From NCBI RefSeq assembly GCF_032854445.1, contig NC_088295.1:32018510-32082509 (forward strand): a stretch of DNA of 64,000 nucleotides. Reading direction: 5' to 3'. The translations under genes were made by a program, and so were the position numbers. The notes under the pieces are model-generated. The model had not been told where the DNA came from, searched no databases, and saw only the letters and a list, made by a program, of their open reading frames with translations. Below, one piece after another: positions 1-53,579 of this stretch (the stretch's first letter is position 1; each line of letters begins with the position of its first letter). The DNA is from Liolophura sinensis. Taxonomy: Eukaryota.

Positions 1-765
1 ATAAACACAGCAAAAGCTGGAAAATAGTTTATGCACATCCCTTTTACGATAATGGTTTTACCGGTGTTAATTGAATATTGATTTTATATATATATATTTT
101 GTTTTTGCAATCATTACATGTACATTATGTGTCACTAACAAGCACCACCCAGCCCTGCCAAACCTACCCTATTCAACTACATCTAGAGGAAGCTCAACAC
201 AAACCCTTATCCTACATGTACAAAACAACGACAGCTCACCTAAACAGGCTTGCTGCCAGGAGGCTTGATCTACGTGTAGACATTATCCTAGCTGACCACC
301 ACTGATTGTCACATTTATCATCGCATGTTTCACCCGCGACTAAAGTTGTCTGGAATCCCCATCACACAGCTCCACACAGCTCACTTGTCCACACATTTCA
401 CAGAGAGCTCTTGCATCCAGCTATTTAGGACGCTATATTTCAATTACAGTATTTTTACCTCAAATTCTGACCTTGACCAAGACACTGATTTTGCCTGACT
501 TTAAGAATTGTTTTCCGTATTAAGGCTTGTTTTTGATAAGCAGATATCTGGCTAAATTCTGAAGCAAATATTTTTTTATTTTACTTTTATTTTTTCATGA
601 GAATTCTTAGAGTAAAAACTCTACCTTTCTGTTCAGGACAAGTGACACAGGCCACTTCACCACATAGTCAAAGGAAAAGGACTCCAAGCCTGAGAGATGT
701 AAATCTGTCGGGTCAATTCTGTAATCTGAAAGACAGCAAGAGAAACACATCAATTTATATCCATT

Positions 766-1005
766 ACATTTATTTATTTACTTGATTGGTGTTTGGTGTT
801 TTACACCATACTCAAGAACATTACACTTATACGACAATGGCCAGCATTATGGTGTGAGGAAACCCAAGACCATCCCCAAGTTGCTGGTGGATCTTCCTAC
901 ATACAGCCGGCTGGACTTGATTTCACATTGACCACATCGGTGAGAGGCTCCTAGGTCATTACGCTGCACTAGTGCGCTAACAAACTGAGCCACGGAGACC
1001 CTCCC
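766..1005 (-). mobile_element. tRNA-derived SINE copy. Family consensus in its own orientation: GGGGCCTCCGTGGCTCAGTCGGTTAGCGCGCTAGCGCAGCGTAATGACCCAGGAGCCTCTCACCAATGCGGTCGCTGTGAGTTCAAGTCCAGCTCATGCTGGCTTCCTCTCCGGCCGTAAGTGGGAAGGTCT..CAGCAACCTGCGGATGGTCGTGGGTTTCCCCCGGGCTCTGCCCGGTTTCCTCCCACCATAATGCTGGCCGCCGTCGTATAAGTGAAATATTCTTGAGTACGGCGTAAAACACCAATCAAATAAATAAA
   Basis: near full-length copy, reverse orientation. Confidence 0.85.
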
Positions 1006-1618
1006 ATTTACTTGGCATTGGACTTAATAGTAAGTAGAGTAATAAATTTCAAAATTTTTATGTCAATAAAACAAACAGGAAGCATAAATAAAGTAATGTA
1101 TGAAGAATTTAAGGCCAAACAGTGACCTAAACGTCTTTATTCATGTGGTTGGAAGTCACAGTTTAGAGAACATATATGATGTTACATTCCAATCTTATGT
1201 CACACAAATATTATAACATCATGATTCACTAAAATACCACAGTAAGCTTTTCTGATCTGTCGAGAACGAGTAATCGGCCAATCATGAGCAGTACTTTTGG
1301 TCAACAGGGTGTCCTACACACTGGTTACAAATGTTTGATCTTTCTGTGGTGTCATGACATCACAACTGCTTTCACCAGGAATGAAATGGCAAGTAATGTT
1401 GTTGCTAGAAGAGGTGGTGTGACATCAGATGTATTTGACACATCCATTTATAGTCAACTTCATCATAACCACCAATAAAGTCGCACAGACATTCCTGACT
1501 GATTATTCTGGATCTTAAATGTCTAACAATTCTGAACTTAATATTACGGCAGCTAGGAACAAAATCATGTAAAATTGATCATAGTATTCCATGACACTGG
1601 CTTATAACTCAACATTAC

Positions 1619-4600
1619 CTTTCTCTAGTTTGGTTTCAATTGTAAGAATCTTGAACATCTGAGTTATTAGGTCATAAGGCAGCAAGTCAACCCTGTAAAG
1701 AAATGAAACAAAAAACTTTATTGCATGAATTTACACGTCATCTTTCTGTGAGTGCAAATATGTGAAGAAATATATTTCCACGAAATTAACATATTTCTGA
1801 TGAGGCTTTTAATATGAAACTAATATCAATCTGACCAATTGACAACCTCTATTAGGTTATCTGATGGATTTTGTTGTTCACATTACAATATTTTAAGGCC
1901 AATATACACAATGACCTGGACATACAGATTAACTGCCACAAGGCATTGAGCTTATTGCTAATTTAATCAGTGTCTGCCAACACTGGGATGGCCAGTGCCT
2001 GAGGAAGGCTTGCACCAGGAAGTGTCTCAGCTGAGAATTTACTTGAGGTCGTCTTTAAAGGGATCCACATTGGCTGTGCTTGTGCGTAGGGCCAGCTCTA
2101 GCAAGCTCTCAAGTCTGGTGGGTAAGATATGTAAACTTTGTCAAGGAAGAATCTGGCTAGTTTTAATCATCAGGTCATTTGACTGTAAGAAAACTGGGCA
2201 CAGCAGTATGTGACAAGGGTGAGGCACTATAATACATGATATCCTTCACCTGTCCCTGGAGGGTAACTGGAAATGGAATTGGCTGCAAGTGGGTCCCTCG
2301 CCACATTTAGTGCCTTGATTGCTCATATGACGTGTTGTTTTTATAATTAGCTCAACCTGCGAAAAGGAAATTGCTTTCACTGAATGTACAGCCCCCCTTA
2401 CAGCTTCACTACCTGTAGAATAAAACAGCAGAACCAAGATAGGATTGTCCTGAAATAGCTTTAGCACAGTCCCCTAATTGAATACATGCATACAAAGATA
2501 CTCTGTATTGAACACTGTGGCCAGTGAATTCAGGGACAATTTTTTCCTGTGAGGATACAAAGATTAGACAATTTAATATACGGCAACAAATCTCATCAAA
2601 CATTCTAAATTCACGCATCTATACCTATATCACACAAAAGATTCCCAAATTTCCCAAGGACTATTCTAGGCTATGATAGAATTATACTCCTCAGAGACAA
2701 GAATGTTATCCAACTGCAAATAGACTTAAAAAAAAAAAAAACTCAAATCCTCTATCCTGACAGAAAGAATGTTTTTAGAATTAGAAATGAATTACTAATG
2801 GTATTCATTTATAATAGGAAGAGTTTTTGCCTCATTCAAGAAAAACAAAACAATTGGGATCAATTCGAACCAAGACAAAGCTCTGACTCCCCAAACATCT
2901 CATCACTGCTATGGAATCCCTGGTAATTCACACAAACTCCAGTCTAGAAAAACTGTTTTTTCTGAAGAAAGATTTCTTCCTTTCCGGCACACCATACTGC
3001 AGCATCCTAGGACAGCCATGCAAATGCACTGCATCTGATCAAATTCCTAAGCTGACTGCATCTTTTTCAATCCATGCAACAATTCTCCTTAGGGTAGGGG
3101 GAGTATTTCATCTGACTGAATGGCTTACCACTTTCATGTTATCTTAAGATTCTGAGCACTGCACTACTAGTCAAGATTATTGGTTCACTTGCAAGACAGA
3201 ACGAGTCCCCATATTTTCTCGTATTAAACAACAGATTTTCTCATAGCCTGCATCAATGCTAAGGTTTTTTCACACAGTAATCCTAGGCATTCTGGCTAAC
3301 CCAATTTTCTCCAAGAACATCTTAGAGTAACACTGTGGCTAAAGACAGCTCATGACTTTCTTATACAGAAACCACTAACTCAATCAATCAAATTTATTAA
3401 TTTATTTGATTATTGATTTATTTATTTATTTGATTGGTGTTTTACGCGGTACTCAAGAATATTTCACTTATACGACGGCGGCCATCATTATGGTGGGTGG
3501 AAACCGGGCAGAGCCCAGGGGAAACCTATTTGATTATTGTATTACTCTGTACCGAAGAATATTTCACTTATACGACGGCGGCCAGCATTATGCTGGGTGG
3601 AAAATGGGCAAAGCCCAGGGGAAACCTATTTGATTATTGTATTACTCCGTACTGAAGAATATTTCACTTATACCACGACCATGGAGGCCCCTCAAACTGT
3701 TTGTTGCTTTCCCACTTCAACAAAATTTCTCAAAGAGTAAGCCCTGCCATGCTCAGTACATGTAGTACAATACAAAGATTTCTTTGTATTTGAAAACTTT
3801 CTAGGTGTGATTTGATTTGGGATTGATTTATTTATGTATTTGATTGATGTTTTACGCCGTACTCAAGAATATTTCACTTCTACGACGGCAACCAGCATTA
3901 TGGTGGGTGGAAACCAAACAGAGCCGGGGGAAACCCACAACCATCCACAGGCTGCTGACAGACCTTCCCTTGTATGTGATTCGTGATTGAACCACGTCAT
4001 GTATCTACCAATTATAACGCTATAAGTGAAATATTCTTGAGTACGGCATAAAACACCATAAAAAAAAAAAAAAAAAAAAAAAACCAATTATAACGCAGCC
4101 AGAAAATAGGCATTTTGACAAACAGCTCTAGGGCTTAACAATATATGCAAAGGATATCATCAATGTTTTGTTTCATTTCCTCCTCTGTCATGTCCATAAA
4201 CTGAACAATGAAGTCTCCCTTGTCCAGCAGGAAATAGTGTTTGATAGATCTGGAATAAGAAGAATATAACTGAAAAATCCCACAGCCACTGATCACTCAG
4301 ATATTTCATTTGATCACAATATCTGATTGGTGTTTTATGCTGTACTCAAATATATTTCACTTATATGTAGGCGACCAGCATTATAGTTAAAGAAAACCGG
4401 GCAGAGTTTGTGGGAAACACATGACCATCTGCAGGTTACTGGAAGACCTTCCCACGTACACCCAGAGAGGAAGCCAGCATGTCCCTCACATAGGACATAC
4501 AGATTTCCTTCTGGAAAGGAAACTGGTACACCTGTACTTGACCCCTGGACTAGCCCATAAAGGCAGATACATGCAGGTATGTTACTATCACATGAATCAT

Positions 4601-7600
4601 ACTGCAAATCACCTACCTGGACAATTTTCTCTGCACATATATTTACATGTATTAACTTGAGCCAGGATTATAGCTGTACTCAAGAATACTACTCTGTATT
4701 CAAACATGGTGTTTCTTATCATCTTACATCTAAAAGAGCTATTTAACCTTAACATAAGATTGGTCCTTATTTCTGATATTATTCTTATGTAAATATGTAT
4801 TCCAAAACTGAGACCGTGTTCGACACAAAAATTCAACCACATAAAAAAAAAAAAAAGGTATCAAAGCCAAGACTAATTCTGTACTGAACTTCACTACATG
4901 TATCACCAGGAAAAGAAGCCATCAAAAGTCTTCCTCACAAAAATCTGACCCATTTCACACAGCTGAACCCTTAAATATATGCAGCATATCGTTAAAATTT
5001 TCAATATCTCATTGCATGTGAGGGCAGTACAATTTCAGCCAAGTTCCAGCATCCAACTTCAAATATTTCCTTTTGTAAAGAACTTTTAAGTTTCAGACTT
5101 AAGCCCAAAATGGCTTTACGAAACAGATCCCTGTCCTGCCAATCCCTGCCAGAATAATCAAATTGGGAAGACACATGTCGGAAGAGAAACAATTTCTGTC
5201 TCACAAAGACAGATGTTCTCATCACCTAGTGTGGCACTGACGGATACCTACCCTATCACAAGTACTCCAGGCCCCAGGGTCACGAAGGGATCTTAGGTTT
5301 AAGTCAGAATGTCAATCATTAAAATTGGTATCTTCCTTTTCATTATTTTAGCCGAAATTTGAAGTACAATAACTTACCTACACTCTACCTTGTCAAGCAA
5401 CATTTTGATCCTGTTTCATAAGAAATAACAAGTGCACTGAAGTTTTAACTAAAGTTTAAGATCGCTTCATGATCCTGGAGCCTGCCCTACACCTATTCAG
5501 CACGTGTTAATAATACCTACATTTGCATACCTGTAACTGTACACGTGCATCTGGGCCTCATTACTTCAAGGGTGCTTGAACACTCACCTTTTGTACCTCA
5601 TAATTAGGAAGTCTCTGATCTACATCCTGCTCCTACATGTACTTCAACCTTAACCTAATAACGTGTAATTTGTTACCCTTATTAGTGTCACTACATTGTC
5701 TCAACCTGCAGAGGGTAATGAAGAAGATTACCATACTCTTTCCATACTTCCAAGATGTACAGCTTGTCTGAAGTTCATTGATCACGCAACTAGAGATCTA
5801 TCAATCATTATTTTTCTCTCATGTTCTTATGTCAGTGAACACAGGTGCCTGTTTTTTGACCCAGCATGTCCTTGAGTGTCTATCCATGTCAGGGATCAGA
5901 CATGACATAAGATGTAAAGAGAGCAGACTGTGAAATGTCAGACACATAAAACAGCTACATCTATCAGTAACAGAAAACAGAGTCTCCCTGAGGAAGTCAA
6001 CCATCAGACGAAGCCAAGTTGGGAGGGCACCTTGATAAGGAAATACAATCTTTGTCTGTTCTGTGAACAAGGGTCAGAAATCAAACACTAATGGCTCTAA
6101 AGGAATACTAACTCCTAATTAAATATACCATCAGACAGATGGCAAGCTATGCGGACTGTCCTGGAAACGAATACAGAAATGTTTGGATAATGCCTTTAAT
6201 ACCAGTACCACACATTTATAGGTGTACAAGTGCCACTGGGCCCAGTTTCACAAACCTCTCTTAACGTTACGCGCTCACAACTACCATGACAATGTACTGC
6301 CTACAGTTCCGGTCGCTGTGGTAGTTAAGTTAACATAACATTAAGGGTGCTTCGTGAAATAAAACAATAAAAAATAAAATAACAACACTGATCACAGAAT
6401 CAGGTACCTGACATGTTGACTGCCTAGACATGGCAGAAGGAATACTGCTCTTCTACTGGTTGATATTCTAGAGCTTAACATTAGTACTGGTGGCTCGAGC
6501 TTTCAAGCTAAGAATACTGGATCTTTCAGCTTATATTTGTACGTTATATTATTATTATCTTATATTAAAACATTCGCTCTAATGGAAATAGACGCAGGAC
6601 AATAGACTGCATCATATGCCTCTAATTTGCGACTGAACTGCTCGTCAACAGTGAGATTTATTTATCTGACTGGTGTTTTACACCATACTCAAGAATATTT
6701 CATTCATACGGGCAGGGCCCTGGGGAAGCCCATGACATCTGCAGGTTGTGGGCAGACCTTCCCACATATGGCTGGAGAGGATGTCAGCATGAGCTGGACT
6801 TGAACTCACGGTGACCACCACTGGTGAGAGGCTCCTGGGTTATCGCGCCGCTCTGGAGTGGTTAACCCCTGAGGAACCCTCAATAGTGATACACAATTGT
6901 ATCACTGTATGACTGTAACACACAGCAATGCCGATATATGTAAACTCAATTGTGTGACCAATGTACCTAGCTTTGACCAGAATGAGACATCACTGGTTGA
7001 GCTGTTTTTGGTAGCCATCCTGTGCAAGCAATTATATGGTTTTGGTGGTAGGAACCTTGAACTGAAGGTCAATAATATGACAAATGCAAAAGAAACTTCT
7101 TATACCATGCTATATAAAGAGTGAAATCAGTGCTTCAATAACAGAAAAAATATGTCAATTTAATTGGATAACACTTGTTTTCCCACCAACAAGCTTAGCA
7201 TAGCCCAAAACAATGAAAAGTTGCATATTTAACGTGTCTATATTTCGACAAAATTTTATGTCATATGAAAATGACAAATTGAATTTTGTCGGAAAACCCA
7301 ACTGTCAATTTTGTCGAATTCCTAAACGTCAAATAAGCAACTTCTTAGATTTTTCAGAGTATCCATAATTTTGCACTATGTTAAGTGGATAAGTTCCGCA
7401 TCTGATCAATAAAATGCAGAACTACTGAATTCAAATTTTAAATCATTGAGCATATGATTTTTTTTTTTTTTTTTTTTGGATTGGTGTTTTACGCCATACT
7501 CAAGAATATTTCACTAATACGACGGCAGCCCAGCATTATGGTGGGTGGAAACCGGGCAGAGCCCGGGGGAAACCCACGACCATCCGCAGGTTGCTGAAAG

Positions 7601-10600
7601 ACCTTCCCACTTACGGCCGGAGAGGAAGCCAGCATGAGCTGGACTTGAGCTCACAGCGACCGCATTGGTGAGAGGCTCCTGGGTCATTACGCTGCGCTAG
7701 CGCACTAACCGACTGAGCCACGGAGGCCCCTTGAGCATATGAAGTGACTTTTCAAGAGAAATTCATATATTAGGGGGGAAAAGATTGCATTAAAACGTTA
7801 GGGTAGCTTTCTCAACGAATAAAGCAAAATTAACACTATTTAAGGATGATGCAAACTCCCAGACAAACTGTTTCACTCTGACACAAGGAAATTTACCGAG
7901 CTGGTTATATTAGCCACTCACAAAGGCCAAGTTCATTGAAGACTTTATACAGCCTCCATCCCTGAAAAGGTTAGCCAGAGGCCACAATAATCAATACTGC
8001 AGACCTGGTTAAGACACTAATCAGGGTAAATTCACAGCTCGGCACATGTCATTCATTGTGACTGTCACTAATTATTGCCATCAGGAACGATTCCTCGTGA
8101 TTATGGACTGAGAAAGGAGAGTCTTGGAAATGAATACTTCAGGAATTGCCCTGCCTTAATAAGCTCAACAACCCGACAACATCTAAGAGGGTACATATGG
8201 AGGAACTTCGACTGAGGGAATTTATATCTTTTGTAAGGAGTGAGGTGAAATGTCAAGAGTGCTAGGAGATCTGACCTGCTCACAGATGAACCCAAAGATG
8301 GATCTCCAAGGCAACAACATTATTTATATTTAGGCAATATGCAATAAATCAAATTAAGATTAAACTGCATTCATTTCTTCTGCTGAAAGAGTGAAATTTT
8401 TCTAACTACGGCTTGAAAGGCAAAACCAAAGAATCATAACACGAGTACATAGTAAATAAAAAAATTTCAAAAGCACATACTTTATCCTGGCAATAAGTTG
8501 CTTTTCCTCCATTAACAGCTGAAGCAGTAGCTTGCTTGCATAGTTAAACGCCTTCTCTATCTGGTCAAAGTATTTTCTGTCTTTCAAAGTGTACTCAATC
8601 TCAACTGCGCTTGGGAATTTCACATCACGACCTGACAAACAGACAGCAAAAGCACAAAAACACTTCAATTAAATTCTCTGACAAACTTCATAGGTTAAAT
8701 AAATCAGGCACATTATCACTTCAAAATACATAATGAACGGAGTGGTACAACTGCTTAGTAAAGCAAGGGAGAGAACTTTACAATAATACTTCAAACAATT
8801 TAAAAACTTTGTGGGAGCGAGTAAGTACCATTTAATCCGTTATATTGTCTTACTTGTAATAATAAGAAAGTGTTTTGGCACATTTAGAATGAAGGTCTTC
8901 AGAGGATTAAAAATCGGACTGTGATTTAACCCAGAGGATACATATTACTGGACTTATCATTTACTCAATGCTAAGCAAACATTTAAGAAGATTGCATCTC
9001 CAAAGAAAGTCACAGCCCTAGACCAAATGTATATATTCAGCCTTTAAAAATCTCACAGCCAGTCTAAAAAGCAGAACTTTTGATATTTGTGATGTTGTAC
9101 AATTGAGATATTGGAGTTCAAATTATGCAAAATCAAGCAGATTGGACACTGTTATGTTTTATCCAATAAGTTGTCACGGTGGGCTACAAGTGAGACATAT
9201 TTCCGGTTGCCATAACATGGCGCATCACGTGGCCTCATAAGAATTCCTTATTAGAAGTTGATTTTTACATTTACCAAGCACATCGGAAAACAATGTGTGT
9301 GTTAGGGTCTGGTTTTACCCCACTTCCCTCAATATGTCAGGTTAAAAAAAAAAAAAAAAAATTGCATTAAAACTGAACTGAATTCCTGATCATGCGTGTA
9401 CATACCACAGAGTCGTACCACATTCAAATATTTGCCAGTGTTTAGTATTTTATCAGCAACTTGTTCCAAAAATACTGGTATCCTTTCCCTGCAGATTGTG
9501 TAATGCTGCTCCCAGTACGTGAGGTTGCATTAAGGAAGATATACATTATTTGAGGGGGAAATGTTAAGTACATGAATGATCAACACCAACAGATACACAG
9601 TTGTAGTCTCTGAAGTTATCATAAAGATGTTCAAGAATAAAGTTTTAATCTATTAATGCTCTTCAATTCCGAAGAAAACAATGAACCACAATAAATCCTG
9701 CTGGTGTTATTGGCTGACGATTAAAATGTATATGCTGAATAGAAAAGGATATGCATCGTTGTATTCCTCCTGAAGTTTCTCTTTCTGTATGGTCTCATTT
9801 TCTTCCACCAAAAACTTAAATAAAGCATAAAGAATTACAGAACATGTCACTAATTCTGATTTCTCTAAACCTGCCAACTTTTCTCTTACATTAAAAACTT
9901 ACACTTCCAAAAGACTCAATGTAAACATGACAACTGTGGTATCGAATGAAAGATGACTGAGTAGTATTTTTTTTTTTTTTTTGATTGGTGTTTTACGCCG
10001 TACTCAAGAATATTTTCACTTATACGACGGCGGTCAGCATTATGGTGGGTGGAACCCACGACCATTCGCAGGTTGCTGAAAGACCTTCTCACGTACGGCC
10101 AGAGAGGAAGCCAGCATCAGCTGGACTTGAACTCACAGCGACCGCATTGGTGAGAGACTCCTGGGTCATTACGCTGCGCTAGTGCTTTAACCGACTGAGC
10201 CACGGAGGCCCCCGACCGAGTAGTGAAGGTCTCATGCAACCTAATATTAAAATCCTTGTCACAACCTACCTCAGAGTACGGATCTGAAACTATTCCTTTG
10301 TAGATCCATTTTTCCAGAATTTCAAAGTATGGAACACAGGCCTGGAATAAAATTAAAATAATATACAGCGAAAAGTGCACATCAGGCCGAGTGAGTCTAA
10401 TCATTCCTTCCAATGATGAAAACATACAAATATAAATACTTACAGCCTGAGTGAGGTACAGACAAAGATCTTGGCCTTTCCCATCACTGAAATGAAAGTT
10501 TTGAAGAGGTATATTAACAGAACTTCAGATAATCACATCTAATCAGACCCTCAGCAAACACTGATGTATCACCCCAGCAAACACTGATGTATCACCCCAG

Positions 10601-13600
10601 CAAACACTGATGTATCAAGCCCAGCAAAACCCTCATGTATCCCCCCAGCAAACACTGATGTATCAAGCCCAGCAAAACCCTCATGTATCACCCCAGCAAA
10701 CACTGATGTATCACCCCAGCAAACACTGATGTATCAAGCCCAGCAAAACCCTCATGTATCGCCCCAGCAAACACTGATGTATCAAGCCCAGCAAAACCCT
10801 CATGTATCCCCCCAGCAAACACTGATGTATCAAGCCCAGCAAAACCCTCATGTATCACCCCAGCAAACACTGATGTATCACCCCAGCAAACACTGATGTA
10901 TCAAGCCCAGCAAAACCCTCATGTATCGCCCCAGCAAACACTGATGTATCACCCCAGCAAACACTGATGTATCAAGCCCAGCAAAACCCTCAAGTATCAC
11001 CCCAGCAAACACTGGTGTATCAACCCAGCAAAGCCAGATGTATCACCCCAGCAAACACTGATGTATCACCCCAGCAAACACTGATAATCATCCTAACAAA
11101 CCCTAATGTATCACCCCAGCAAACCCTGATGTATCACCCCAGCAAACACTGATGTATCACCCCAGCAAACTGATCAGGGCCTCACTGGTCAAGGGTCTGA
11201 GGGCTTCAGCAAACACTGATGTATCACCCTAGCAAACCCTAATGCATCACCCCAGCAAACTCTGATGTATCACCCCAGCAAACAGCAAACTCACCAGGGC
11301 CTCACAGGTCAAGGGCCTGAGGGCTTCAGCAAACACTGATGTATCACCCCAGTAAACACTGATGTATCACCCCAGCAAACTCATCAGAGCCGCACTGGTC
11401 AAGGGCCTGAAGGCTTCAGCAAACGCTGATGTATCACCCCAGCAAACCCTGATGTATCTCCCCAGCAACCACTGATGTATCACCCCAGCAAACCCTGATG
11501 TATCACCCCAGCAACCACTGGTGTATCAACCCAGCAGACAGTAATGTATCAACCCAGCAAACACTAATGTATCACCCCAGCAAACTCATCAGGGCCTCAC
11601 TGGTAAAGGGCCTGAGGGCTTCAGCAAACACTGATGTATCACCCAGCAAACCCTGATGTATCACCCCAGCTAACACTGATGTATCATTCTTTCAAACTCA
11701 TCAGGACCTCACTGGTCAAGGGCCTGAGGGCTTCAGTAAACACTGATGTATCACCCCAGCAAACCCTGATGTATCACCCCAGCAAACACTGATGTATCAC
11801 CCCAGCAAACAGTGATGTATCAAGCCCAGCAAAACCCTCATGTATCACCCCAGCAAACTTATCAGGGCCTCATTAGTCAAGGGCCTGGGGGGTTCAGCAA
11901 ACAACACAATGAATGACTAAGTCAGTGACAACAATCCACAATCACCATTACATTCAGATGTAAACAATTTTCAACTGCTAAAACCTTGGGAACTTATAAA
12001 ACCAAGTTACAAATCATGCATACACTCACCCAATCAAACTTGATGTTTTCTCATGAAGAAGACTTAAAATTGCACCTCCAATACACTCTCCCTACAAGAA
12101 TGCAAATAAAAATAATAAAATACGAAGCCCAAATAATATCTTTAATATTTATTTAATAAGATTTACATAGCCTCAAGTAATTACAAAATGAAAGAAAAAA
12201 AGGGTTTTTTATTTATTATTTATTTGATTTTTACGCCGTACTCAATGATATTTCATTTATACGATGGTGGCCAGCATTATGGAGGGAAAAAACCGTGGAG
12301 ACCCTGGGGGAACACCATGACCATACACAGGTTGCTGGCAGATCTTCCCACGTACAAAACAAAAAAATAAAAACAGCATTTATTAAGTTGTTACCATAAT
12401 TTTTCAACCTTTTTGCATTGCAACTGGCCAATCTAAATATGTAGTTTTGTCTCCAAAATCAAGTTGAAAATGTGCATAAATGGCACTGAAAGTTGCTGTT
12501 TCATAGGCAAAAAGGCTGAGGAATTAGTGTATTAATAGCGAACACATTTCACAGGTGAGTTCGTCACAGAACCTTACCCTGTTGACTGAGTTAGCCACAG
12601 AGGCCAGAAGACCTAAGGTGTGGAAGGTGGGCTGAAGGTAAAACCATAACTTCTGCAGGACAAATTCTCCTGACAAGAACAAACCGGCATCATCACAGTA
12701 AATACAGGTTCAAATACACTCTTCATCCCTATGACATTCCTACCTTTTCGCGTTTCAGAGGACAGGTACATCATATGACTACATAATACACATGCGCCAA
12801 GTTACACCACATTACTGAGTACTGCCTCTGATACGGCCGATTCTACAAAGCCATTTCTCAACTTAATTCAAAATTGAGACAGAATTTTAGAGTGCCAAGT
12901 TTAACTTTCAGTTTAGATATCTAAGCACTATGACGAGAGTTTTCACCCAAGTCAGTAATGGCTTTGTAGAATTAGTCTGTGGACTAATTCCTAAATCAAT
13001 ACATTCACTACTTAGTTTATTTGTACACTACAAGAACACTTCTGCAGGTTGCTAGTATCATCACAGTTGACACAATTCTATGTTAATACTTCTACTACTT
13101 GTCAGAATGTTGTGATCACAATCCATCAGACTAAGAACATAAAGACCAATTATGCCCTCACTGACCTTCCTCAGTTGGCGCTCCAGCTGAGCCACTAGAA
13201 TAGTGTAGTCCTACAAACAGGGAAAACAATATACGTGTACAGCTACAAATGTCTAAAGTGCAAGGCAGTTAATATACAACTAAAGGACAATCCAGCATGG
13301 TAACAGAACAAACCCAAAATTATTGAAAGAATATGTATAGAACATATGTAAGAACACACATAGATTAAATGTAAATATTCATTGCACCTGAGCTTTCAGA
13401 ATCCTGGGAGTTCAAAGGTAGTACTAATGCACTACGTGTACAGTGTAAAGACTGAACAATAACGCAATATTAATTAGGCCAATAATTAGGTACCACGATC
13501 GAAGTGAGGGTCGCAAAAAAATCCCCAGTCAAACATAGCTGTGTCCTTTGTTTTGGTGTTGATAAACAGATCAGCAGAAACAAAACAGATGAAGAAGCTT

Positions 13601-16600
13601 ACCCGTATAATGGTTCTCATGGCAGCACTTAGAGCATGGCTGACCAACCCATACTCAAACGCAAGACTTCTCTGAAACAAACAAATCATCTACTCAACTC
13701 TGATTTACATGTACTGACAAAACAAACATTCAAAACCCTTATCAGGATGGTTATTAATCTAAAAGAACAGCTTCAAAAATCCAACCCTGTAATTGAGACA
13801 CATCAATGACTAAATAAATGAATTTTCCAACATGAAAATGTCCTGTTGTGCAGACATTCTGACTTTCAAGAGTGCTAGGGACACCATACCTTTGTGCAAT
13901 AAGTTTGAAACAACCTATTTCAACACAAAAATGCTGGAAATATAGATGGTAAGTTACTGCCAGGAGCTATTCATTTAATGATTTCATATATTTACCTTCA
14001 ATAAATCTGACTACAACAGAGTAGTCTGAGCACAGTGGTAAAATTCGGTTCACAAACTCTTTAAGAGATGGATCTGCAAAATAGTATTAAAATATTAGCT
14101 TATAATAACTAGGATGGTAACCAGCACATTGAGCTTTACATCATCATAGCAGATACGTGGTCACATTAAAAGATCACAGCTTTTTTTTTGTCCAGCCCCT
14201 CAATTTCTTACATATTGCACTCAAAAGGCAATTTACCATATTACACGTACTCAATTATAATGCTAACACACATCCAGGTTCTAGATATTGTGGAATTATT
14301 GTAACACTTTAGTTTAATAAAACTTGGCTCTGATTAAAAGATGATAATCAGCAAGATAAAGTTATAAATATAGTTCACATAGTTGACTGAAATTTCGAGA
14401 CTTACAGTGGCACTAGAAAGAGACTTCCGTGCATGATTAAAGTAGACAAAAAAAAAAAAAAAAAAAACGCATGAAAAGCACCAAAACCAAATTCGTTGTT
14501 GCCAGTGTGGTTTCTTATAGTGGATAGCATATATTTGATGCAATAAATTGGATCTCAGCTTATTTTAAGCGTTAATCTGATGCATTGTAGAGCAGGGAGC
14601 TGAGAATGGCTGCCTGTGTCACAATGCGTACATATTGGGAAGGAAACTACAGTAACATGCCAAGATGATCTGGTAAGAAAAATGCCTGGGGGACAGTCAT
14701 TCCTTGAAGTAAAATATTGTGACTTTGCAATATTTTTCCTTAGCAAAGTCAAATTTATTGCGAAATATCTTCCCAATATCTGAATGAAAGAGTCTGTTAT
14801 CAATCAGTGGGTCCAGCTATGTGCGGTAAATACCCTGAAGTAGGTACAGCCAGGAAGGCCAAATGAGGGTGTGCAGGACCGCTAAAACACAACACTTGTG
14901 TCCATAAATAGCCTTGACTGAGCGCCAAATTAAAACAAACATCGGCCCCTTAAACAAGGAACCCAAATGATACTGTATGGTTGGGGGATTTTTTCTTTCT
15001 ATTGTCACATTGTTTAAAACGGATGGTACGGGAGAACTCGTAGGTTTTGTGACATTATTCTAGATAACTACAACATGGCAAAATGGCGTCACCAAATGAG
15101 TGGCTAGGTAATGATGATTTGTTTGCTATTTATTTTGATGATAAGCGATAAATATTTTAAACCTTTCTAGAATGTACTTTATTAATTGATTCAACTTCAG
15201 TGGCTGACTTTACATTCACTTTAAACATGATCTGAAAATGACAGGGAAAGCACTTAGGGATTTCAGATGAATTTATCTGAGAGCTGCTTTTATGTTTCTC
15301 CGCACTGTAACGCATAACCTACAAAAAAATCTCAAGATGCTCAAAATTAACTCATGAAAAAAATGCAAGCCAACAAAGACAATTTTCTTTCAAATACTTC
15401 CTATGTCTACGTAACTCCAAAGCACGAAACACAAAAGAAGATACCTACCCAAAGATTGGTCAATTACAAACTCTTTGGGGGAGTACTTGTCTTTAAGAGG
15501 TCTGGCTAAAATATATTTCCCCTCAATGCCCTGGTAAATATAACGTGAAAATAGCATATAAGTACAATCTTATTCTTGCATGTGCTCATGTATCCTATTG
15601 CACAGGTATCTCATTCTCTCTTTGGCTCCATTCAAGGTCGCCTATAATAGTGTACTATGACTGGTCAGTGTGGTAACACAAAAGTTGATAAGCAACCAAT
15701 ATGTGGCTCATAAATAGGCCATTCTAATGCTTTATTTCTTTACATTGATTGGAATACTAAAAACTGTTTCAGAATTATGAATAAAGAAATAGGGTAGATA
15801 AAACAGGGCAGGAATTGGGGTCAGCCCCACTGTCAGTCACATGAAAAACCACCTAATGTAACTTCAAGGCCCAATGTCCTACTGTTTATTTATTTATTTA
15901 TTTGACTGGTATTTTATGCCGGACTCAAGAATATTCAACTTATACGATGGCGGCCAGCATTATGGTGGATGGAAACTGGGCAGAGAGCCCAGGGAAAACC
16001 CACCGCAAGAATGTCCTATTGGATTTCACATTAAATTTTAATAACTCTAACACAGGCAATGCCCATTTTCTACATACAACTTCATGCAACTCCTGTTACT
16101 TGAATGGATTAAATGGCTGTGGGGAAATGTCCCTTACCTGCATACAATGGAGGACGTCCTCCAGTATTGCCAGTTCCTGCTGAGGAGCAGGTAAGGTGCC
16201 CAGAGCTACCACATTCTGCACAAAATAGGGGTGTTCGGAAGATATACAATGTATTATCACACACATCAAGCCACTTCATACCAAATGTAACAGAGCATGT
16301 CACAGATTATGAAAGCTGGGTTAACCCACATAATATTACTACAAACCACCGTTATGACTCAATAGTTTCAAAACATGCAGATATTGACATTATTATGGAA
16401 TAACTCAACTAAAAAATATGCTTATGGGAATCCAGTTATGTGCATGTATAAAGCTATCTCTCAGCTGTTAAAATGCTCCTCAATCAAACCACTGTTTTTC
16501 TTCAATGTAACATGTTCAATATGTGCATTACCACATTAACAAGTGACACAAAAAATTGAAAATCCCTAACCAATAAGAATTTTTTATAAAATTATACATT

Positions 16601-19600
16601 CTACAAAAGGAAGTATTGGAAAACATAGATGTACTTTGCACCATACATGTGAAATGAAAGACACGATAATATCTGGTTCTAAAGCTGTGTTTGAACACTG
16701 AGGCTTGTCACAAATGGGATCATACACACACTTACTTCATCAGCAATGGGGTCAGTGTTGACAATGAAGTCTAAGGTCAGAGCAGGTCTGTCAAACAACC
16801 ACTCAGGCTGGACAGGAACGTTCACTACAACACAAGACCAGGATCATATTAAAAGATAAGAAGGTTTCTTTTTCTGGACTTTTCACATGCTGTACTCTTA
16901 CAAGCATGAGTATACATATTACTGGTTTATAAAAATCACACACATTCAGTTCTAGATATCGTGGAATTATTAGAATACTGTAGTTTTCAAGAAAAGACAA
17001 CCAAAAATACAATCAGTTATTTAGGAAGAGGGGTGGATGCTATTTGTTTCTGACATGCTTGACATCGCTATAAATCAACTTTTGATAAGGCACTCTTATG
17101 AGGCAAAGAGGGTTTGGGTGATACAAGTGGAAACAGACGTATCCCCAAGTTACGGAAACAACTCTCCCCTGATTGGATAAAACCAATAACATGTCAGTGC
17201 TTTCAACCGTCTCGATGTATGCATTTGGGGTTATTTTGTAAGTCTGAGATATATACACTTGGTCTATTTATTTATTTATTTGATTAGTGCTTTATGCCGT
17301 ACATTTGGTCTAGTGTCTTTTCCATTAATAAATATGAAATCTAAGGTTAGGGTAGGTACGTCAAACAATCACTCAGCCTGGACTGTGATGTTCACTACAA
17401 CACAACATCAAGATGCTAAGTGGACAACATGCCCTTGGCCAGTTCAGATATGCCAGAATACAACTACATGCATATACAGATGCATTCACCCAGTGCTATT
17501 TGTTAATTTGACAGTTTAATGAAATTGGCAATGTCTACTTCATATGAAAAGCAATTTGTCAAAATGCCACAATTGTATCAAACATCTGACCAGTCGACAC
17601 AACAAATGCACAGTGCATACACAGCTTAAAGGGGTTAGCATGTGCATCATGTTCAAGAGTTTATCTATCCGCTTTCCTTGATTAAAATATCCAAGAATTA
17701 TGCATAATTTAATATGATAAGCATCATTAATAAAAATAAAAGGTGTTTATCTGAATATCTTTGACAAATCATGCTGCAGAGATGTGTTATTAAATATTCT
17801 GCCTGTCACTAGTTCATTTGTGAAAATGGGTACAAGCCAATGGGGGTACAAGCCGTACCATTCCTTTTCAACTGTTTTTCTCGTAATCCTTTCCGTAACA
17901 GCTCAGACGATGTTATTGCATCAGTAGATGTTGCCTCTCTTAACAGCATATCTTTGATCTGTAAATTAATAAACAATTTAATATTGTCATAGTTATCTGA
18001 AGTTAAAAACAAAACACATAAGGCATAACAATCCAATGGAGCTGAAGTTTTTATGTGCAAGTCATAATAATTTATTTATCAATTTATTTCATTGGTGTTA
18101 TACAATAGAATATTACACTTATACAACGGCGGCCAGCATTATGGTGGGGAAAAAACTGGGCAGAGGCCACGATCATCTGCTGATTGGTGGCAGACCTTCC
18201 CACAAGAGGAAACCAGTATGAGTGAGACGAACTCAGGGCAAATTAAATGGTGAAAGGCTCCTAAATCATCGCGCCACGCTGGCGAGCTAACCACCATAGA
18301 GGCCCCATAAGCCATGATATCCTATGAGATTAGGAGGTGACGGCAGACAGAGCATTACATAAGACTGCTGGAAGGCTAGGGGTTACTTTCAAATTCACAA
18401 CAACTTCAGTGACATTCATATACCTCTGTTAGCTCTTGTTGGGTCATCTTTGTTCCAGGGGCAGGTAACTGTGATATGACTTTACTGTGGGATGTGAGAG
18501 TAAGACCAGCATTGTCTGCACGGTCTTTGGCATTTTTTCCCAGGAATTGCTTTGTCTGAAAATTTCACAAAAAGTCATCTGTAATAAACCCACCCAAATG
18601 CCTAATACAACACAATAACAATCTAGTTTACATACCGAAAAATACATTAAAATACAATGCTTTCCTTTTACACACTCACTTTGCACACAGGAAAGGCTGT
18701 GATTATTCAGCATTCTTTACCTTAACATCTAAAAACACCTCAATATATTGACAAAGTTAAAGAGCTGAACACTTTACAACTACATGTAGATACCTTTTTT
18801 TCCTCAGATAACTTGGAGAGCAAGAACACCAGAGAGTCCAAGTCCCGAACACTGTCATAACATACAAGGCCAGATATTTATAAATGCACATGCAAGTGCA
18901 TGCAATTGAATCTGGGTAGGTTTACCAATAACACATATTATTATTTATACATCAGTGAAATCCCAGTATTTCCTTCACTGATAAAAATGGTATCTTCACT
19001 AGTTAGATATCACTTTTGTTATTACATTTTGCTATTACACTGCTGGAGACCTTGATCCGTGACCCACGGCCGTGCACTTCCGCGCAATACATAGTTCGGC
19101 AAAAAATAAAAAATAAGGGATAGACATTCTCCATGTGCTTAATTTACCTAAATACCTATATTGCATTAGCATTAAACACCTTTGTAGAATGTATAATTAC
19201 TTACAGACAATTTTTAAAACTGTAAAAAGGTTTTGTGAGCACGGACGTGAACGAAATTGCGGCACGTATGAACAGAATCAGAAATACGAAGAAGATGGCA
19301 CAATGCTTATTTTTTTCAAAGATGCAACAGATGTAAATGCCTTTATATTCGTGGGCATAAACTTTCGCGGATTTGGTAAAAAGACACATTTGCGGGAATC
19401 AACTTTTGCAGATCTTAACAGAATTTTTGGACAACTGATCAAACTTCAATACAGAAACATCAAGTAATAAAACAACTCAAGCATTCAAGTAACAATGTTA
19501 TCATTTAAACTTGTTTGTAACTGTAAGATGTGACGAAACTTCTATACATTGAAGACTGTTACTCTTTATAAGACGAAGCCCTTACCTGCTGTGTGAGCAA

Positions 19601-21645: not shown

Positions 21646-22439
21646 GATGATACCTGAAATCTCATATAAATATTATTACTTCTATACCTAAACATCTTTG
21701 AAATAAATTGCACACTCTTCAAAACTGTTAAATATGAAAGATTTGCCAATACAAACCCTAGTAAATTCATCAGTTCGCTGACATGATGGTGGATCTTAAA
21801 CTCTCCCATTGTGAAACTTTAATCTGCAAAAAAAGAAACCAAAAACATGTAAAATATACATTATAAAGATTATAACCCTATATCTCTGAAAGAATTGAAT
21901 GATTGTTATTTTAGTTCAACACCATACTCAATAATTTTCAACTTATATGATTGTGGCCAGTTTTCCGATGTGTCCGTGATAAACAATCAATTAGTTGTGG
22001 GCAGCTAGCACTCAACTTCACAAACGATAACCATACTAATATTATGCAGGGAAGTTGTTAATAATTGGGCGCTGTCATGGCAGAATTTTTTTTTTTTTCC
22101 AATCAGTTGTCAGCAAAGAAAATTCAAGCAAAAAGATAAATGCCCATAGATTTCCCTGTTTTACTCCTGATGAAAATTCGACAGAAGGAAGTAATTGAAC
22201 AACCCTGTGAACTTTAACATGAGCAACTTAAGCTCATCAGCATCATTTGGTTTCTGAATGAAAGTCTGTCGAAAATTGAGCATCACACAATCCATCACCC
22301 TATACTCACATGTTGTGAGTGTGGTGACAGTTAATTCAGACTGAAAATAGGTTTGTTATATATATGGTCACATCAAATACTTGGCTTCATTGTGATGATA
22401 ATTTAGAAAGACCTCTAAACCAGGTTCAACTCGTGCCCT

Positions 22440-29524: not shown

Positions 29525-32500
29525 ATGACCGATCCTCTTCCCACAATAAACATTGATCAGCTCACTAGCTCTGTGACCAGTGTCCTGGCCTCAGCTCCAC
29601 AATCAGACTATGTGGCTACTACCACAGGCACTGGCACTTGTGCCTCACAACCGTCCTCAACTGCAGTTACCTCCCCTTCATTGGTCATGACTCATTCAAT
29701 GACCTCTCCAATCACAAGTGAGTTCTGACCATTTGTATAATTTTTAACAGTTTCATCTTGGATACATTTTAACCAGTGTGAATATTATGAGTTATGTTAG
29801 GCAGCAGAAATCAAAAAGTATTTGATTTAAATGAATAACAAAAAGCAATAAACGACTGTATATGCTAATGATTGTTTAAAAATATTTCTGATCATGTCAG
29901 TACTTGACATAGTCAGGCAGATAAATAGGTGGGTGACCAGAAAAAGATCAGCACTTTATATGTAGAAATGTATTTTTCTTTTCATGTCACGCCACCAGCT
30001 GTTCCTCTGTCAAGTGTCCCTGGCATGCCATTGTCAAGCCTCCCCACCCCCCAGTCTATGATGCCAGTCATGGTGCTGGCCTACGTAGGTGGAAGACCGA
30101 CACTGCTGTCCCTAACGGATCAGCTGACAAGTAGCAAATTCCCCACAGGTAAACGTCTGCCTATCAGCATTAATTTGTTCTAATTTGGGAGGGGGGGGGG
30201 GATGCAGGGAGCGCTCACTTTCCATGAATTTAAGAATTCATCACAACATCTAGCCTATTTTCAGACTTCATGTTACAAAATTGAAAGATACTGAGTTTTG
30301 TTTGAAAGCATTAATTTTTGGCCAGCCTTCGCGCTATTTCCTGAACAGCCAACCATAAAATCAGACCTGACTCCCTGAATCTTGATGAGGATTCTAAGCT
30401 AGATCAGTCAACATCAGGGGCTCATTCCGCAAAGCCATTTTTGACTAAAGTCAAAATTTTAAATACCATCTTAAAGCCTATTGTTCGGTTTTAGAAATTA
30501 AAATTTTGTCCACTTCATCAATGTTATTGTTAGACAAATATGTCCAAGTTTCAACTTACGGTATCAAAAGCGACGCATTGTGAAGAGGTTTTAATTTTGG
30601 CTCTAGGTTAGAAATGACTTTGGAATCAAAGACAAAAGGCATTGATGATATTATTGGGTCAATGTTGGGTCAATGAATTCTGAAGTTAAAGTTCATGGAT
30701 AAAGCTGTTCATTCATTTTCCCAGCAACCTCCAATGGTCCTCAACTGCAGCAGACTGTACACAGTATTAGTCACGTGGACAGCAGCAGTATGATACCTGT
30801 GTCAGGTAAGCTCCATCCCATAGTATTTTGGCTGCTTTACTCATTTATGTGAACTTTAAGTTTATTGCCTCTCCACTGCAGGAGGAAACATGTGTATATG
30901 TAAAATACTATTTGTTAACTGTAGGTCTGCATTATATCATAAGTACTCATCTGATCTTTACTAAATATTTCATAAGATTCTGTAGGTGAGACATAAGGAT
31001 AAATAAGATATTATCTTTTTGTAATGTTATGCCTGTTTTCCTGTGTTCGTTTGTCTCGTGATTGTTCACTTGTCTTTCTTGAATGATGTCTTCAGATTGT
31101 TCAACCAATCATATGCACACTCAGGTAATCCTATTTGGATGTCACGTTGATGGGTTGCCACAGTTTGATTGGATGACAATCTAGCTTCATCTGCCTTCCT
31201 AGAAGCTTACAATAGTCATTAGTTGGATGAATATTCTTGAGTACGGCATAAAACACCATTCAAATAAATAAATAAATAATAATACATTAGTTGGATGAGG
31301 GATGGGTCATGCAAAAAGAGCCTTGCTGGTTCACATATTAGGGACCACTTACTGTCTGGTAGAATATTCATCAGTGTAAACACACGTTGTTGAAATTAAA
31401 AATTTAGTAAGATTCTAATTTGGTGAAGATCACTGTGTATTTTTATGGCTCCAGATCAGAATATTGGTATGAGCTAATTTTGATTGAAGTTTTACCTTAT
31501 GTGTCAACATGTTTACGTAAGTCGAGACCGGGCATGAAAACATTATCACATTGGCTGAATAACATGGGAGTTAATATGAAACATTGCTTCACTGCCTTAT
31601 AAGTCCAGAACCATGGTTGACATTCACAATTTATGCGTGCCGTGCTGAATGTTCTATTGTCAAACATACTATAGTTTTCAAGTATAAAGAGTAAGTTGTC
31701 AGTATATTGTCCAGTGTTGTTCATTACCCTATACATTCCAGTGTTATCTTTCACCACATCGTCTGCTTGCCGCTGCCTCATGCGAGTGAATTGCCAAGAT
31801 ATAGGAGTGAATTGCGTGGTCTCAGATAGAATCTACATGCGTCAGAATTTACAATTTTTATTGTTTAGTTGACTGCTTTGCCCTTGTTGCAGGTTCCATG
31901 TCCCAGACTTGCCGGCCGTCAGTTCTCCCACAGATACAGCCTTTGCCTTCACAAGCAGAACCGGTACAAGTGACAAATAAATCTGAACAGAGTATCCCTG
32001 GTCATATCTTGATCCAACCCAAGCCTACAGTAGCCACATCCTGTGCTCCAATACCCCAGTCTACCCAGCCTGTTCAGTCTATCCCCACCTCCACTGGCCC
32101 CCCTCTGCCCAGAGCCCTTACCCCCATGACCAGTCAGACCCACAGGATGACCCCTATTGACCTCCAGGCCCTTCTTAATCAGTGTGTCCAGAGTCCAGTT
32201 CTGACTCATCAGCCATGTTCTAGTCAAACTCCCAGCAACAATCTCTTACAGCTGGCAGCAGGGGGGATAACTGCTGAGCATCCAGTGTCTCAGGGAGAAA
32301 TACCATGTATGCCTCCAGCCCAGGGGTTAACTTCCCTTCCTGATCCAGTCCCCATCCCACCCCTATCTCAGCAGAGTGTACTGCATAACCAGGTACACAC
32401 CAACACATCAGCTATGATGCCGTCAGGGACCGTAGCTGGTTCAGGGGCAGAGAACTCTGACACACCTGTCATGATGGAGAGCCAGTCCATGGGTCCTCCG

Positions 32501-53080: not shown

Positions 53081-53228
53081 TGATTTGTACTTTACGTCGA
53101 ACTCAGAATATTTTACTTATACGACAGTGGCCAGCATCATAGTGGGAGGAAACCGGGTAGACGCCCGGGAAATCCACGGCCATCCGCATGTTGCTGGTGA
53201 AACTTCCAACGTACGGCAGTGATCCGTA
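53081..53228 (-). mobile_element. SINE copy (partial)
   Basis: matches family consensus. Confidence 0.75.
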
Positions 53229-53321
53229 GGCGAGCGCCTAGACTACTTGACCAACAAAGGCATTGTCATTAATTGGAATTACACTTTAAGTTACCGTCAT
53301 AATATTTTCTTCTGGAACCAG

Positions 53322-53575: not shown

Positions 53576-53579
53576 CTGG

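What the first reader, a model, noticed from the sequence alone, without database searches (positions are those of the whole stretch)
2043..9814. Two AT-AC (U12-type) introns in a single gamma-tubulin complex gene
TUBGCP2 here contains two minor-spliceosome introns with textbook signals. Both start /ATATCCTTT. Both have a TCCTTAAC-like branch site 10-11 nt from the 3' end, which is AC. The two introns are 9519..9752 (234 nt) and 2131..4157 (about 2 kb, full of SINEs). In both cases the AT-AC solution is the only one that keeps the frame and reproduces the conserved protein (ND|A|YWEQHY and NID|D|ILPTRLE). Two U12 introns in one gene is uncommon. It also shows that this genome keeps a working minor spliceosome, and that SINE insertion into a U12 intron is tolerated.
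Basis: partly seen in the sequence, partly recalled or inferred. Interest (0 to 1): 0.6.

Follow-up and report, generated by a model that had tools for sequence, protein, structure and literature searches.

The report
Two minor-spliceosome introns in mollusc GCP2
The gamma-tubulin complex gene TUBGCP2 in this mollusc window contains two rare AT-AC introns of the kind removed by the minor (U12) spliceosome; related species keep them, vertebrates lack them, and this is a solid but ordinary new example of a well-known intron class.

Summary
TUBGCP2 lies on the minus strand, starts at 21809 and runs off the left edge of the window. Intron A (9519..9752, 234 nt) and intron B (2131..4157, 2027 nt) both begin /ATATCCTTT. 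Each has a U12 branch site (TTCCTTAAT or TTCCTTGAC) 10-11 nt before a terminal AC. The splices give ND-A-YWEQHY and NID-D-ILPTRLE. The other eleven introns whose two boundaries I read are GT-AG.

Comparison with other species is the main support. The same two positions carry ATATCCTT...AC introns in the gastropod Batillaria and in several unnamed relatives. The bivalve Potamilus has A only. Intron interiors cannot be aligned, yet the signals persist. In other lineages these positions hold U12 GT-AG introns, U2-type GT/GC-AG introns, or no intron. Marmot and sea urchin lack both; a water lily lacks A and has no intron at B's position. The human minor-intron lists I searched name no TUBGCP gene.

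Three caveats:
- In-frame GT/GC-AG alternatives exist, but all damage conserved residues.
- There is no RNA evidence.
- An upstream exon of this assembly has a 1-nt frameshift.

Verdict: real U12-type introns, a new member of a known kind, of modest interest.

The parts
1..21809 (-). TUBGCP2 (GCP2) gene. The start codon is at 21809..21807 and the gene runs off the left edge of the window. At least 22 exons lie in the window.
   Evidence: tblastn of Patella vulgata and Batillaria GCP2 proteins maps the exons from MGEFKIHHHVSELMNLLG at 21809 down to 2043. The match to solved GCP2 structures has E about 1e-158.
9753..9814 (-). Exon upstream of intron A (FLVEENETIQKEKLQEEYND plus GC)
   Evidence: Translation. 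An AG acceptor precedes it. tblastn with P0001 and Batillaria protein.
9519..9752 (-). Intron A: U12-type AT-AC, 234 nt, phase 2
   Evidence: Orthologous AT-AC introns are found in L001, L005, Batillaria, Potamilus, L017, L028, L041 and L043.
9744..9752 (-). 5' splice site of intron A: ATATCCTTT
9529..9537 (-). Branch site of intron A: TTCCTTAAT. The presumed branch A at 9530 is 11 nt before the terminal C at 9519.
9406..9518 (-). Exon downstream of intron A (YWEQHYTICRERIPVFLEQVADKILNTGKYLNVVRLCG). It ends at a GT donor (TGTG|GTATGT).
4158..4249 (-). Exon upstream of intron B (SIKHYFLLDKGDFIVQFMDMTEEEMKQNID plus G)
   Evidence: The window translation is 100% identical to Batillaria over 34 aligned residues that cover this exon and read on into the intron (RSIKHYF...NIDDIL).
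2131..4157 (-). Intron B: U12-type AT-AC, 2027 nt, phase 1
   Evidence: Orthologous AT-AC introns are found in L001, L005, L006, Batillaria and L020.
4149..4157 (-). 5' splice site of intron B: ATATCCTTT
2140..2148 (-). Branch site of intron B: TTCCTTGAC. The presumed branch A at 2141 is 10 nt before the terminal C at 2131.
2043..2130 (-). Exon downstream of intron B (ILPTRLESLLELALRTSTANVDPFKDDL plus AA). It ends at a GT donor (CTCAA|GTAAAT).
3403..4105 (.). Cluster of interspersed-repeat (SINE-like) fragments inside intron B. There are three units 100 nt apart, one more direct copy, one inverted fragment and a poly(A) run.
13663..13664 (-). Extra T, relative to three orthologues, in the exon that starts at 13671. 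It causes a +1 frameshift in this assembly.
   Evidence: DNA alignment. No splice alternative restores the frame.

Best explanation
These are two genuine U12-type (minor-class) AT-AC introns in the TUBGCP2 orthologue of a mollusc.

Inferred mechanism, from the established U12 pathway rather than tested here:
- The U11/U12 di-snRNP recognises the rigid /ATATCCTTT 5' splice site (U11, later U6atac) together with the TTCCTTRAY branch site (U12).
- The 3' splice site is the first suitable dinucleotide (AC) about 10-12 nt downstream of the branch A. No polypyrimidine tract is needed.
- Splicing joins GC|G (Ala) and G|AT (Asp) and gives the conserved GCP2 sequence.

Both intron positions are old within a lophotrochozoan-type clade. 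They show the usual U12 dynamics: retention as AT-AC, switching to the GT-AG U12 subtype, conversion to U2-type GT/GC-AG, and outright loss.
For: Sequence signals shown directly:
- Both introns have a perfect 9/9 match to the 5' splice-site consensus, a consensus branch site 10-11 nt from the 3' end, and AT-AC termini. There is no pyrimidine tract between branch site and 3' end (TGCAACCTCAC and CAAAGTTTAC).
- The splice restores the conserved protein without a gap.
- The other eleven introns of the gene for which I read both boundaries are GT-AG, so the gene's default is canonical.

Comparative evidence:
- All ten orthologous introns measured begin ATATCCTT. Each has CCTT[A/G/C]A[C/T] with 8-11 nt between the branch A and a terminal AC.
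- Lengths range from 234 to 803 nt for A and from 297 to 2262 nt for B.
- Interiors cannot be aligned even between the closest pair, L001 and Batillaria, which are 95% identical in protein.
- Further AT-AC copies of A occur in L017, L028, L041 and L043.

Subtype switching and conversion at the same codon positions:
- Site A: GTATCCTTT...ACCTTAAT...TTAG in L020.
- Site B: GTATCCTTT...TTCCTTGAT...CCAG in L059; U2-type GT/GC-AG in L014, L023 and L053; GT-AG shifted by 2 nt in L007.

Annotation scars: gene predictors that cannot model AT-AC introns fail at exactly these sites in published mollusc genomes (Batillaria, Elysia, Patella caerulea, Potamilus).

Background: molluscs are reported to be relatively rich in minor introns (PMC10639083).
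Against: - No transcript evidence was available for this species, so splicing at these junctions is inferred.
- No minor-spliceosome snRNA gene lies in the window, so the machinery is not shown here.
- The assembly has a 1-nt insertion that frameshifts an upstream exon. If this is real, this particular copy may not encode a full protein.
- ATATCCTT on its own occurs at chance frequency in the window.
Confidence: 0.9

Rival explanations
1. The copy in this window is a pseudogene or non-functional allele. The U12 signals would then be inherited relics, not sites currently needed to make GCP2 protein.
For: An extra T at 13663/13664, relative to L001, L006 and Batillaria, shifts the frame to EKS-C-V-stop. 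No canonical splice alternative rescues it.
Against: - Every other exon I inspected is open and 70-100% identical to mollusc orthologues.
- All splice signals I inspected are intact.
- A single-base indel is a common assembly error.
- No second GCP2 copy was seen in the window.
Confidence: 0.08
2. The junctions are mis-modelled and the real introns are ordinary GT/GC-AG introns a few bases away. The ATATCCTT motifs would then be chance matches.
For: ATATCCTT occurs at the chance rate in the window. Nine in-frame, stop-free GT/GC-AG alternatives exist within +/-45 nt.
Against: - Every alternative removes or replaces residues that are conserved from molluscs to vertebrates (one search compared).
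- The AT-AC signals recur at the same codon positions in many independent genomes.
Confidence: 0.01
3. These are AT-AC introns removed by the major (U2-dependent) spliceosome.
For: A rare class of U2-dependent AT-AC introns exists (my own knowledge, not tested here).
Against: Those introns have U2-like 5' splice sites (/ATAAGT) and pyrimidine tracts. Here the 5' splice site is the U11/U6atac-binding ATATCCTTT, and a U12 branch site lies at the U12-typical distance.
Confidence: 0.01

Closest known systems
U12-type (minor-class) AT-AC introns, for example human SMYD2 ATATCCTTTA...TTTCCTTGAC...AGCAC as listed in PMC7367187
   Same: - The same 5' splice-site and branch-site consensus, short branch-to-3'-end distance and AT-AC termini.
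- Occurrence as isolated introns among U2-type neighbours.
- The same evolutionary behaviour: subtype switching, conversion to U2-type, and loss.
   Different: The host gene differs. No TUBGCP gene appears in the human minor-intron supplements I searched. Marmot and sea-urchin TUBGCP2 have uninterrupted exons at both positions.
Genes with several U12 introns (non-random clustering reported in 21 genomes, PMC7367187)
   Same: Two U12-type introns lie in one gene. In L020 the pair is GT-AG plus AT-AC, and in L059 it is an AC-ending intron plus GT-AG. The pairing therefore persists across subtypes.
   Different: Both introns are of the rarer AT-AC subtype, which makes up about 26% of human U12 introns. 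This gene family is not one of the classic multi-U12 families such as the voltage-gated ion channels (my own knowledge).
Minor-to-major intron conversion as surveyed by Larue and Roy 2023 (PMC10639083)
   Same: - L014, L023 and L053 carry U2-type GT/GC-AG introns at exactly site B.
- L018 has a decaying GTATCTTT...GTCTTAAC...GCAG intron at site A.
   Different: In L007 the U2-type intron is displaced by 2 nt at both ends (GAGGAG|GTAGGT...TATAG|ATC). It reuses the exonic AG that follows the U12 3' end in its nearest relative, L006. Whether such a shift is common was not checked.

Membership tests
U12-type intron | 5' splice site matching /[A/G]TATCCTT | tested here: met
   Both introns read ATATCCTTT. 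The ten orthologous introns measured, and four more, all begin ATATCCTT.
U12-type intron | Branch-site consensus TCCTTRAY close to the 3' end. The range of about 8-20 nt with an optimum near 11-13 is from my own knowledge of Dietrich and Padgett's work. | tested here: met
   TTCCTTAAT with 11 nt after the branch A, and TTCCTTGAC with 10 nt. Orthologues show 8-11 nt; the distances printed are one too small.
U12-type intron | No polypyrimidine tract between branch site and 3' splice site | tested here: met
   The intervening sequences are TGCAACCTCAC and CAAAGTTTAC.
U12-type intron | AT-AC (or GT-AG) termini consistent with the reading frame | tested here: met
   The AT-AC junctions restore ND-A-YWEQHY and NID-D-ILPTRLE.
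U12-type intron | Removal depends on the U11, U12, U4atac and U6atac snRNPs | not testable with these tools
   No RNA or functional data were available. The Rfam scan of the window found no snRNA gene, which says nothing about the rest of the genome.
U12-type intron | Formal score above threshold with a trained classifier (intronIC or U12 position-weight matrices) | not tested
   No position-weight matrices were available here. Only the match to the consensus and cross-species conservation were used.
TUBGCP2 / GCP2 orthologue | GCP N- and C-terminal domains, and a best match to GCP2 rather than GCP3-6 | tested here: met
   Solved GCP2 chains match at E 3e-158 to 8e-153, GCP3 at 2e-22 and GCP6 at 4e-13. 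Homologues carry PF17681 and PF04130 and are named GCP2 by their sources.
SINE (the repeats in intron B) | Short dispersed element with a pol III (tRNA-like) head and a simple-repeat or A-rich tail | tested here: inconclusive
   - 18 dispersed hits in the window.
- The element appears to be roughly 250-280 nt, by my reading of the 353-position consensus built from the copies plus their flanks. An (ATTT)n run lies at one end, and by eye there is a B-box-like GAGTTCAAGTCC on the reverse strand.
- ARAGORN and Rfam found no tRNA.

The most novel reading that the evidence does not exclude
Both U12 introns were gained as U12-type introns within spiralian (lophotrochozoan) evolution, rather than inherited from the metazoan ancestor.

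On this reading they were inserted at coding sequences that already resembled the U12 5' splice site. At site B, the codons G|AT ATC for Asp-Ile match ATATC, and the downstream exon still starts ATATC(T/A), like a short direct repeat flanking the intron. That would be a rare documented case of minor-intron gain in animals, and twice in one gene.

Evidence that does not exclude it:
- Marmot and sea urchin lack both introns. A water lily lacks A and has no intron at B's position. Arthropod-like exon fragments lack an intron at each position wherever they cover it.
- Every carrier found has a lophotrochozoan-type sequence.

Evidence that weakens it:
- An unnamed and more divergent lineage (L059, about 70% identical to spider, mollusc and Ciona proteins) also carries U12-type introns at both sites.
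- The sea-spider (Nymphon) model skips the exon after A.
Probability: 0.2. Interest if true: 0.6.

Novelty: new member of a known kind. Interest (0 to 1): 0.3.

Why it matters
- It adds a well-supported pair of minor-class introns in a core centrosome and microtubule-nucleation gene. Vertebrate catalogues do not list this gene as depending on the minor spliceosome, so in these animals GCP2 expression would depend on that machinery.
- It has a practical consequence. Published annotations for Batillaria, Elysia, Patella caerulea and Potamilus truncate, split or mis-splice this gene exactly at these introns. AT-AC-aware annotation would repair them.
- The two positions give a compact natural series for studying minor-intron evolution: AT-AC, U12 GT-AG, U2-type GT/GC-AG, a version shifted by 2 nt, and loss.
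- None of this changes what is known about how U12 introns work.

Tried and rejected
- Motif enrichment: ATATCCTT is not over-represented in the window. The copy at 53882-53889 sits beside a repeat with no coding context and was dismissed. The copy at 2239-2246 lies antisense inside intron B.
- Alternative GT/GC-AG models were enumerated and rejected.
- The Rfam scan of the window found no minor snRNA or any other RNA family. ARAGORN found no tRNA-like SINE head.
- Literature:
  - No paper in the library pairs TUBGCP2 with minor introns.
  - The supplements of the Olthof 2019 and CENATAC papers contain no TUBGCP gene.
  - One further paper had no supplements held.
- Contig look-ups for the chimpanzee TUBGCP2 and Nymphon proteins found nothing on record. 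A marmot contig stood in for mammals, and the chelicerate question was addressed only through exon fragments.
- The cluster look-up gave no organism names for the unnamed loci, so L001, L005-L008 and L014-L077 remain taxonomically unassigned. My recollection that some JGI contig series come from gutless annelids or corals could not be verified and is not used.
- Four metagenome loci that looked intron-less (L027, L037, L049, L052) are cDNA-like and were discarded as evidence of absence.
Full report
**What is in the window**

| | Intron A | Intron B |
|---|---|---|
| Coordinates | 9519..9752 (234 nt) | 2131..4157 (2027 nt) |
| 5' junction | AACGATGC\|ATATCCTTTTCT | AACATTGATG\|ATATCCTTTGCA |
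| 3' junction | TCTTCCTTAATGCAACCTCAC\|GTACTGGGAG | TTCTTCCTTGACAAAGTTTAC\|ATATCTTACC |
| Phase and codon | phase 2, GC\|G = Ala | phase 1, G\|AT = Asp |
| Spliced protein | ...EEYND-A-YWEQHYTICRERIP... | ...KQNID-D-ILPTRLESLLELALR... |
| Branch A to terminal C | 11 nt | 10 nt |

No pyrimidine tract lies between the branch site and the 3' end in either intron. The four flanking exons end on their other sides at ordinary AG acceptors and GT donors.

**The gene**

- A 377-residue draft assembled from the exons matches solved Xenopus and human GCP2 chains at E about 1e-158 to 1e-153. GCP3 matches only at 1e-22.
- The closest named proteins are mollusc GCP2 sequences: Batillaria 73%, Elysia 71%, Patella caerulea 75% and Potamilus 78% over the parts they cover.
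- Mapping Patella and Batillaria proteins onto the window places the start codon at 21809 on the minus strand. At least 22 exons lie in the window, and the C-terminal third of the gene lies beyond position 1.
- The other eleven introns for which I read both boundaries are GT-AG. A and B are the exceptions.

**Is it more than chance?**

The 8-mer ATATCCTT occurs four times in the window against 3.4 expected, so the motif alone proves nothing. What cannot be chance is the placement. Two of the four copies begin at the very nucleotide where protein homology stops. Each is matched by a U12 branch site plus AC at the nucleotide where homology resumes, in the right phase.

Within +/-45 nt there are six in-frame, stop-free GT/GC-AG pairs for A and three for B. 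All of them delete or replace residues conserved from molluscs to vertebrates.

**Comparative evidence**

Exon-sized ORFs called on genomic contigs of other species gave the first hints. Some read 'NIDDIL...' straight into an ATATCCTT intron. Others enter the next exon as '...T-YWEQHY', which is what an AC terminus in phase 2 produces. Fetching the contigs confirmed this.

Site A:

| State | Loci |
|---|---|
| AT-AC, both ends seen | window, Batillaria (L010, 356 nt), L001, L005, Potamilus (L009, 803 nt), L017, L028, L041, L043 |
| AC-ending 3' end with branch site, 5' end not seen | about 20 further metagenome loci, including L024-L026, L031-L036, L038-L040, L045-L046, L048, L050-L051 and L053-L054, and L059 |
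| U12-type GT-AG | L020 (GTATCCTTT...ACCTTAAT...TTAG) |
| Degenerate GT-AG | L018 (GTATCTTT...GTCTTAAC...GCAG) |
| Branch site plus AG, 5' end not seen | L016 (TTCCTTGAC...TATAG) |
| No intron | L006, L007, L008, L014/L019, L022, L023, marmot, sea urchin, water lily, arthropod-like and plant-like exon fragments |

Site B:

| State | Loci |
|---|---|
| AT-AC | window, Batillaria (297 nt), L001, L005, L006, L020 |
| U12-type GT-AG | L059/L060 (GTATCCTTT...TTCCTTGAT...CCAG) |
| U2-type GT-AG or GC-AG, same nucleotide | L014, L023, L053 |
| GC at the same 5' position, boundary less certain | L022 (3' AG seen); L034, L040 (3' end not in the locus) |
| U2-type GT-AG, both ends shifted by 2 nt | L007 |
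| No intron | Potamilus, marmot, sea urchin, fish-like and arthropod-like exon fragments |
| Different position | water lily, an ordinary intron eight codons downstream |

- All ten introns measured start ATATCCTT and carry CCTT[A/G/C]A[C/T] 8-11 nt before AC.
- Their interiors cannot be aligned even between L001 and Batillaria, which are 95% identical in protein.
- Four metagenome loci without introns turned out to be cDNA-like and were set aside.

**Distribution outside this clade**

The supplements of two human minor-intron studies contain no TUBGCP gene. So these are not the vertebrate-catalogued kind of U12 intron. Every carrier I found has a lophotrochozoan-type sequence.

A more divergent, unnamed lineage (L059) has U12-type introns at both sites. 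A sea-spider (Nymphon) gene model skips the exon after A. The introns are therefore older than molluscs. Whether they are ancestral to bilaterians or gained in spiralians is open. I put the gain reading at about 0.2.

**Annotation scars**

Public gene models fail at exactly these introns:
- Batillaria loses 19 residues after A, ends in a read-through of B ('DDILSKHM'), and has the gene split into two models.
- Elysia reads 'NDAYPF' into the ATATCCTTT of A.
- The Patella caerulea model ends at 'NDAY'.
- The Potamilus model starts at A.

This is indirect support for non-canonical junctions, and it is a practical point for annotators.

**How it most likely works**

This part is inferred from the established U12 pathway and was not tested here. 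U11/U12 binds the 5' splice site and the branch site cooperatively. U6atac replaces U11 at ATATCC. The AC about 10-12 nt after the branch A is used as the 3' splice site.

Shown here: the signals, the frame, the homology and the cross-species retention of the signals. Not shown: actual splicing in this species, and the presence of the minor snRNAs. None lies in the window.

Larue and Roy report that molluscs are relatively rich in minor introns (PMC10639083). A working minor spliceosome is therefore expected rather than newly revealed.

**How unusual are two in one gene?**

- Human lists give 722 minor introns in 699 genes (PMC7507305 abstract).
- AT-AC introns are about a quarter of human U12 introns, and clustering of U12 introns in the same genes is statistically significant in all 21 genomes examined (PMC7367187).
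- Two AT-AC introns in one gene is therefore uncommon but fits a known tendency.

**The repeats in intron B**

- A dispersed repeat gives 18 hits in the window against none expected.
- The element appears to be roughly 250-280 nt, by my reading of the 353-position consensus built from the copies plus their flanks. It has an (ATTT)n end and, by eye, a B-box-like motif.
- Intron B holds three units 100 nt apart, a fourth copy, an inverted fragment and a poly(A) run.
- 'SINE' is plausible but not proven: ARAGORN and Rfam found no tRNA.
- The orthologous intron is only 297 nt in Batillaria, so the extra length here is largely repeat-derived. This is unremarkable for any intron class.

**A caveat about this copy**

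The exon that starts at 13671 has an extra T at 13663/13664 compared with L001, L006 and Batillaria. This turns EKSAFEYG into EKS-C-V-stop, and no splice alternative repairs it. All other exons are intact and conserved. An assembly indel is the likeliest cause, but a defective allele or copy cannot be excluded.

**Verdict**

This is a new member of a well-known kind, with a neat evolutionary series and a practical annotation lesson. Interest is modest, at 0.3.

Noticed in passing
window 13663-13664 (minus-strand exon starting at 13671): A one-base insertion (extra T) relative to three orthologues frameshifts TUBGCP2 in this assembly. EKSAFEYG becomes EKS-C-V-stop, and no canonical splice alternative rescues it.
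   Followed up: partly
L010 (Batillaria attramentaria), L009 (Potamilus streckersoni); proteins P0121, P0124, P0166, P0216, P0213: Published gene models are truncated, split or mis-spliced exactly at the two AT-AC introns. The Batillaria gene is split into two models at intron B. Elysia reads 'NDAYPF' into intron A. The Nymphon model skips the exon after site A.
   Followed up: partly
L007 16740-18860 compared with L006 12000-12960: In L007, site B carries a U2-type GT-AG intron displaced by 2 nt at both ends (GAGGAG|GTAGGT...TTTTATAG|ATC). Its nearest relative, L006, has ATATCCTTG...ATCCTTAAT...GCAC|AG. The U2 acceptor reuses the exonic AG that follows the U12 3' end.
   Followed up: partly
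L020, L018, L016 (site A); L059, L060, L074, L075, L014, L023, L053 and others (site B): At the same two codon positions, unnamed metagenome contigs show the GT-AG subtype of U12 intron, decaying signals, and U2-type GT-AG or GC-AG introns. Together they form a full series of subtype switching and conversion.
   Followed up: partly
window 2126-2130 compared with 4153-4157; also L001, L010, L020, L059: The exon after intron B starts ATATC(T/A), the same 4-5 nt as the intron start (ATATCC). At site A the next exon starts NTA(C/T). This could be a relic direct repeat from intron insertion. It could equally be a coincidence of the Asp-Ile and Ala-Tyr codons with the U12 consensus.
   Followed up: no
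window 10547-11858: A 23-nt minisatellite (about 56 copies, with higher-order periods of 71-317 nt) lies inside a TUBGCP2 intron. It accounts for the local peak in GC content and the strong GC skew.
   Followed up: partly
window 17300-17395: A degenerate duplicate of the exon at 16739-16825 (VNITVQAE*LFDVPTLTLDF...) carries an in-frame stop. It looks like a decayed exon duplication inside an intron.
   Followed up: no
window, 18 sites including 3457, 7504, 15929, 21302, 43429, 53722: A dispersed repeat family with an (ATTT)n end and a B-box-like motif; the element appears to be roughly 250-280 nt. It is probably a tRNA-derived SINE, but no tRNA was detected by ARAGORN or Rfam.
   Followed up: partly
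window 51244-61603 (minus strand) and 36359-37543 (plus strand): There are at least three rhodopsin-family GPCR paralogues or fragments in tandem (Pfam 7tm_1) and a C2H2 zinc-finger gene. A 257-residue Pro/Ser/Thr/Gln-rich ORF at 31898-32671 has no Pfam match.
   Followed up: partly
P0001 (ENA contig of 2157 bp): This fragment starts with intron-like sequence before FLVEENE, then runs uninterrupted across four intron positions, including A and B. It could be a partly spliced transcript, a retrocopy, or a lineage that lost four adjacent introns.
   Followed up: no
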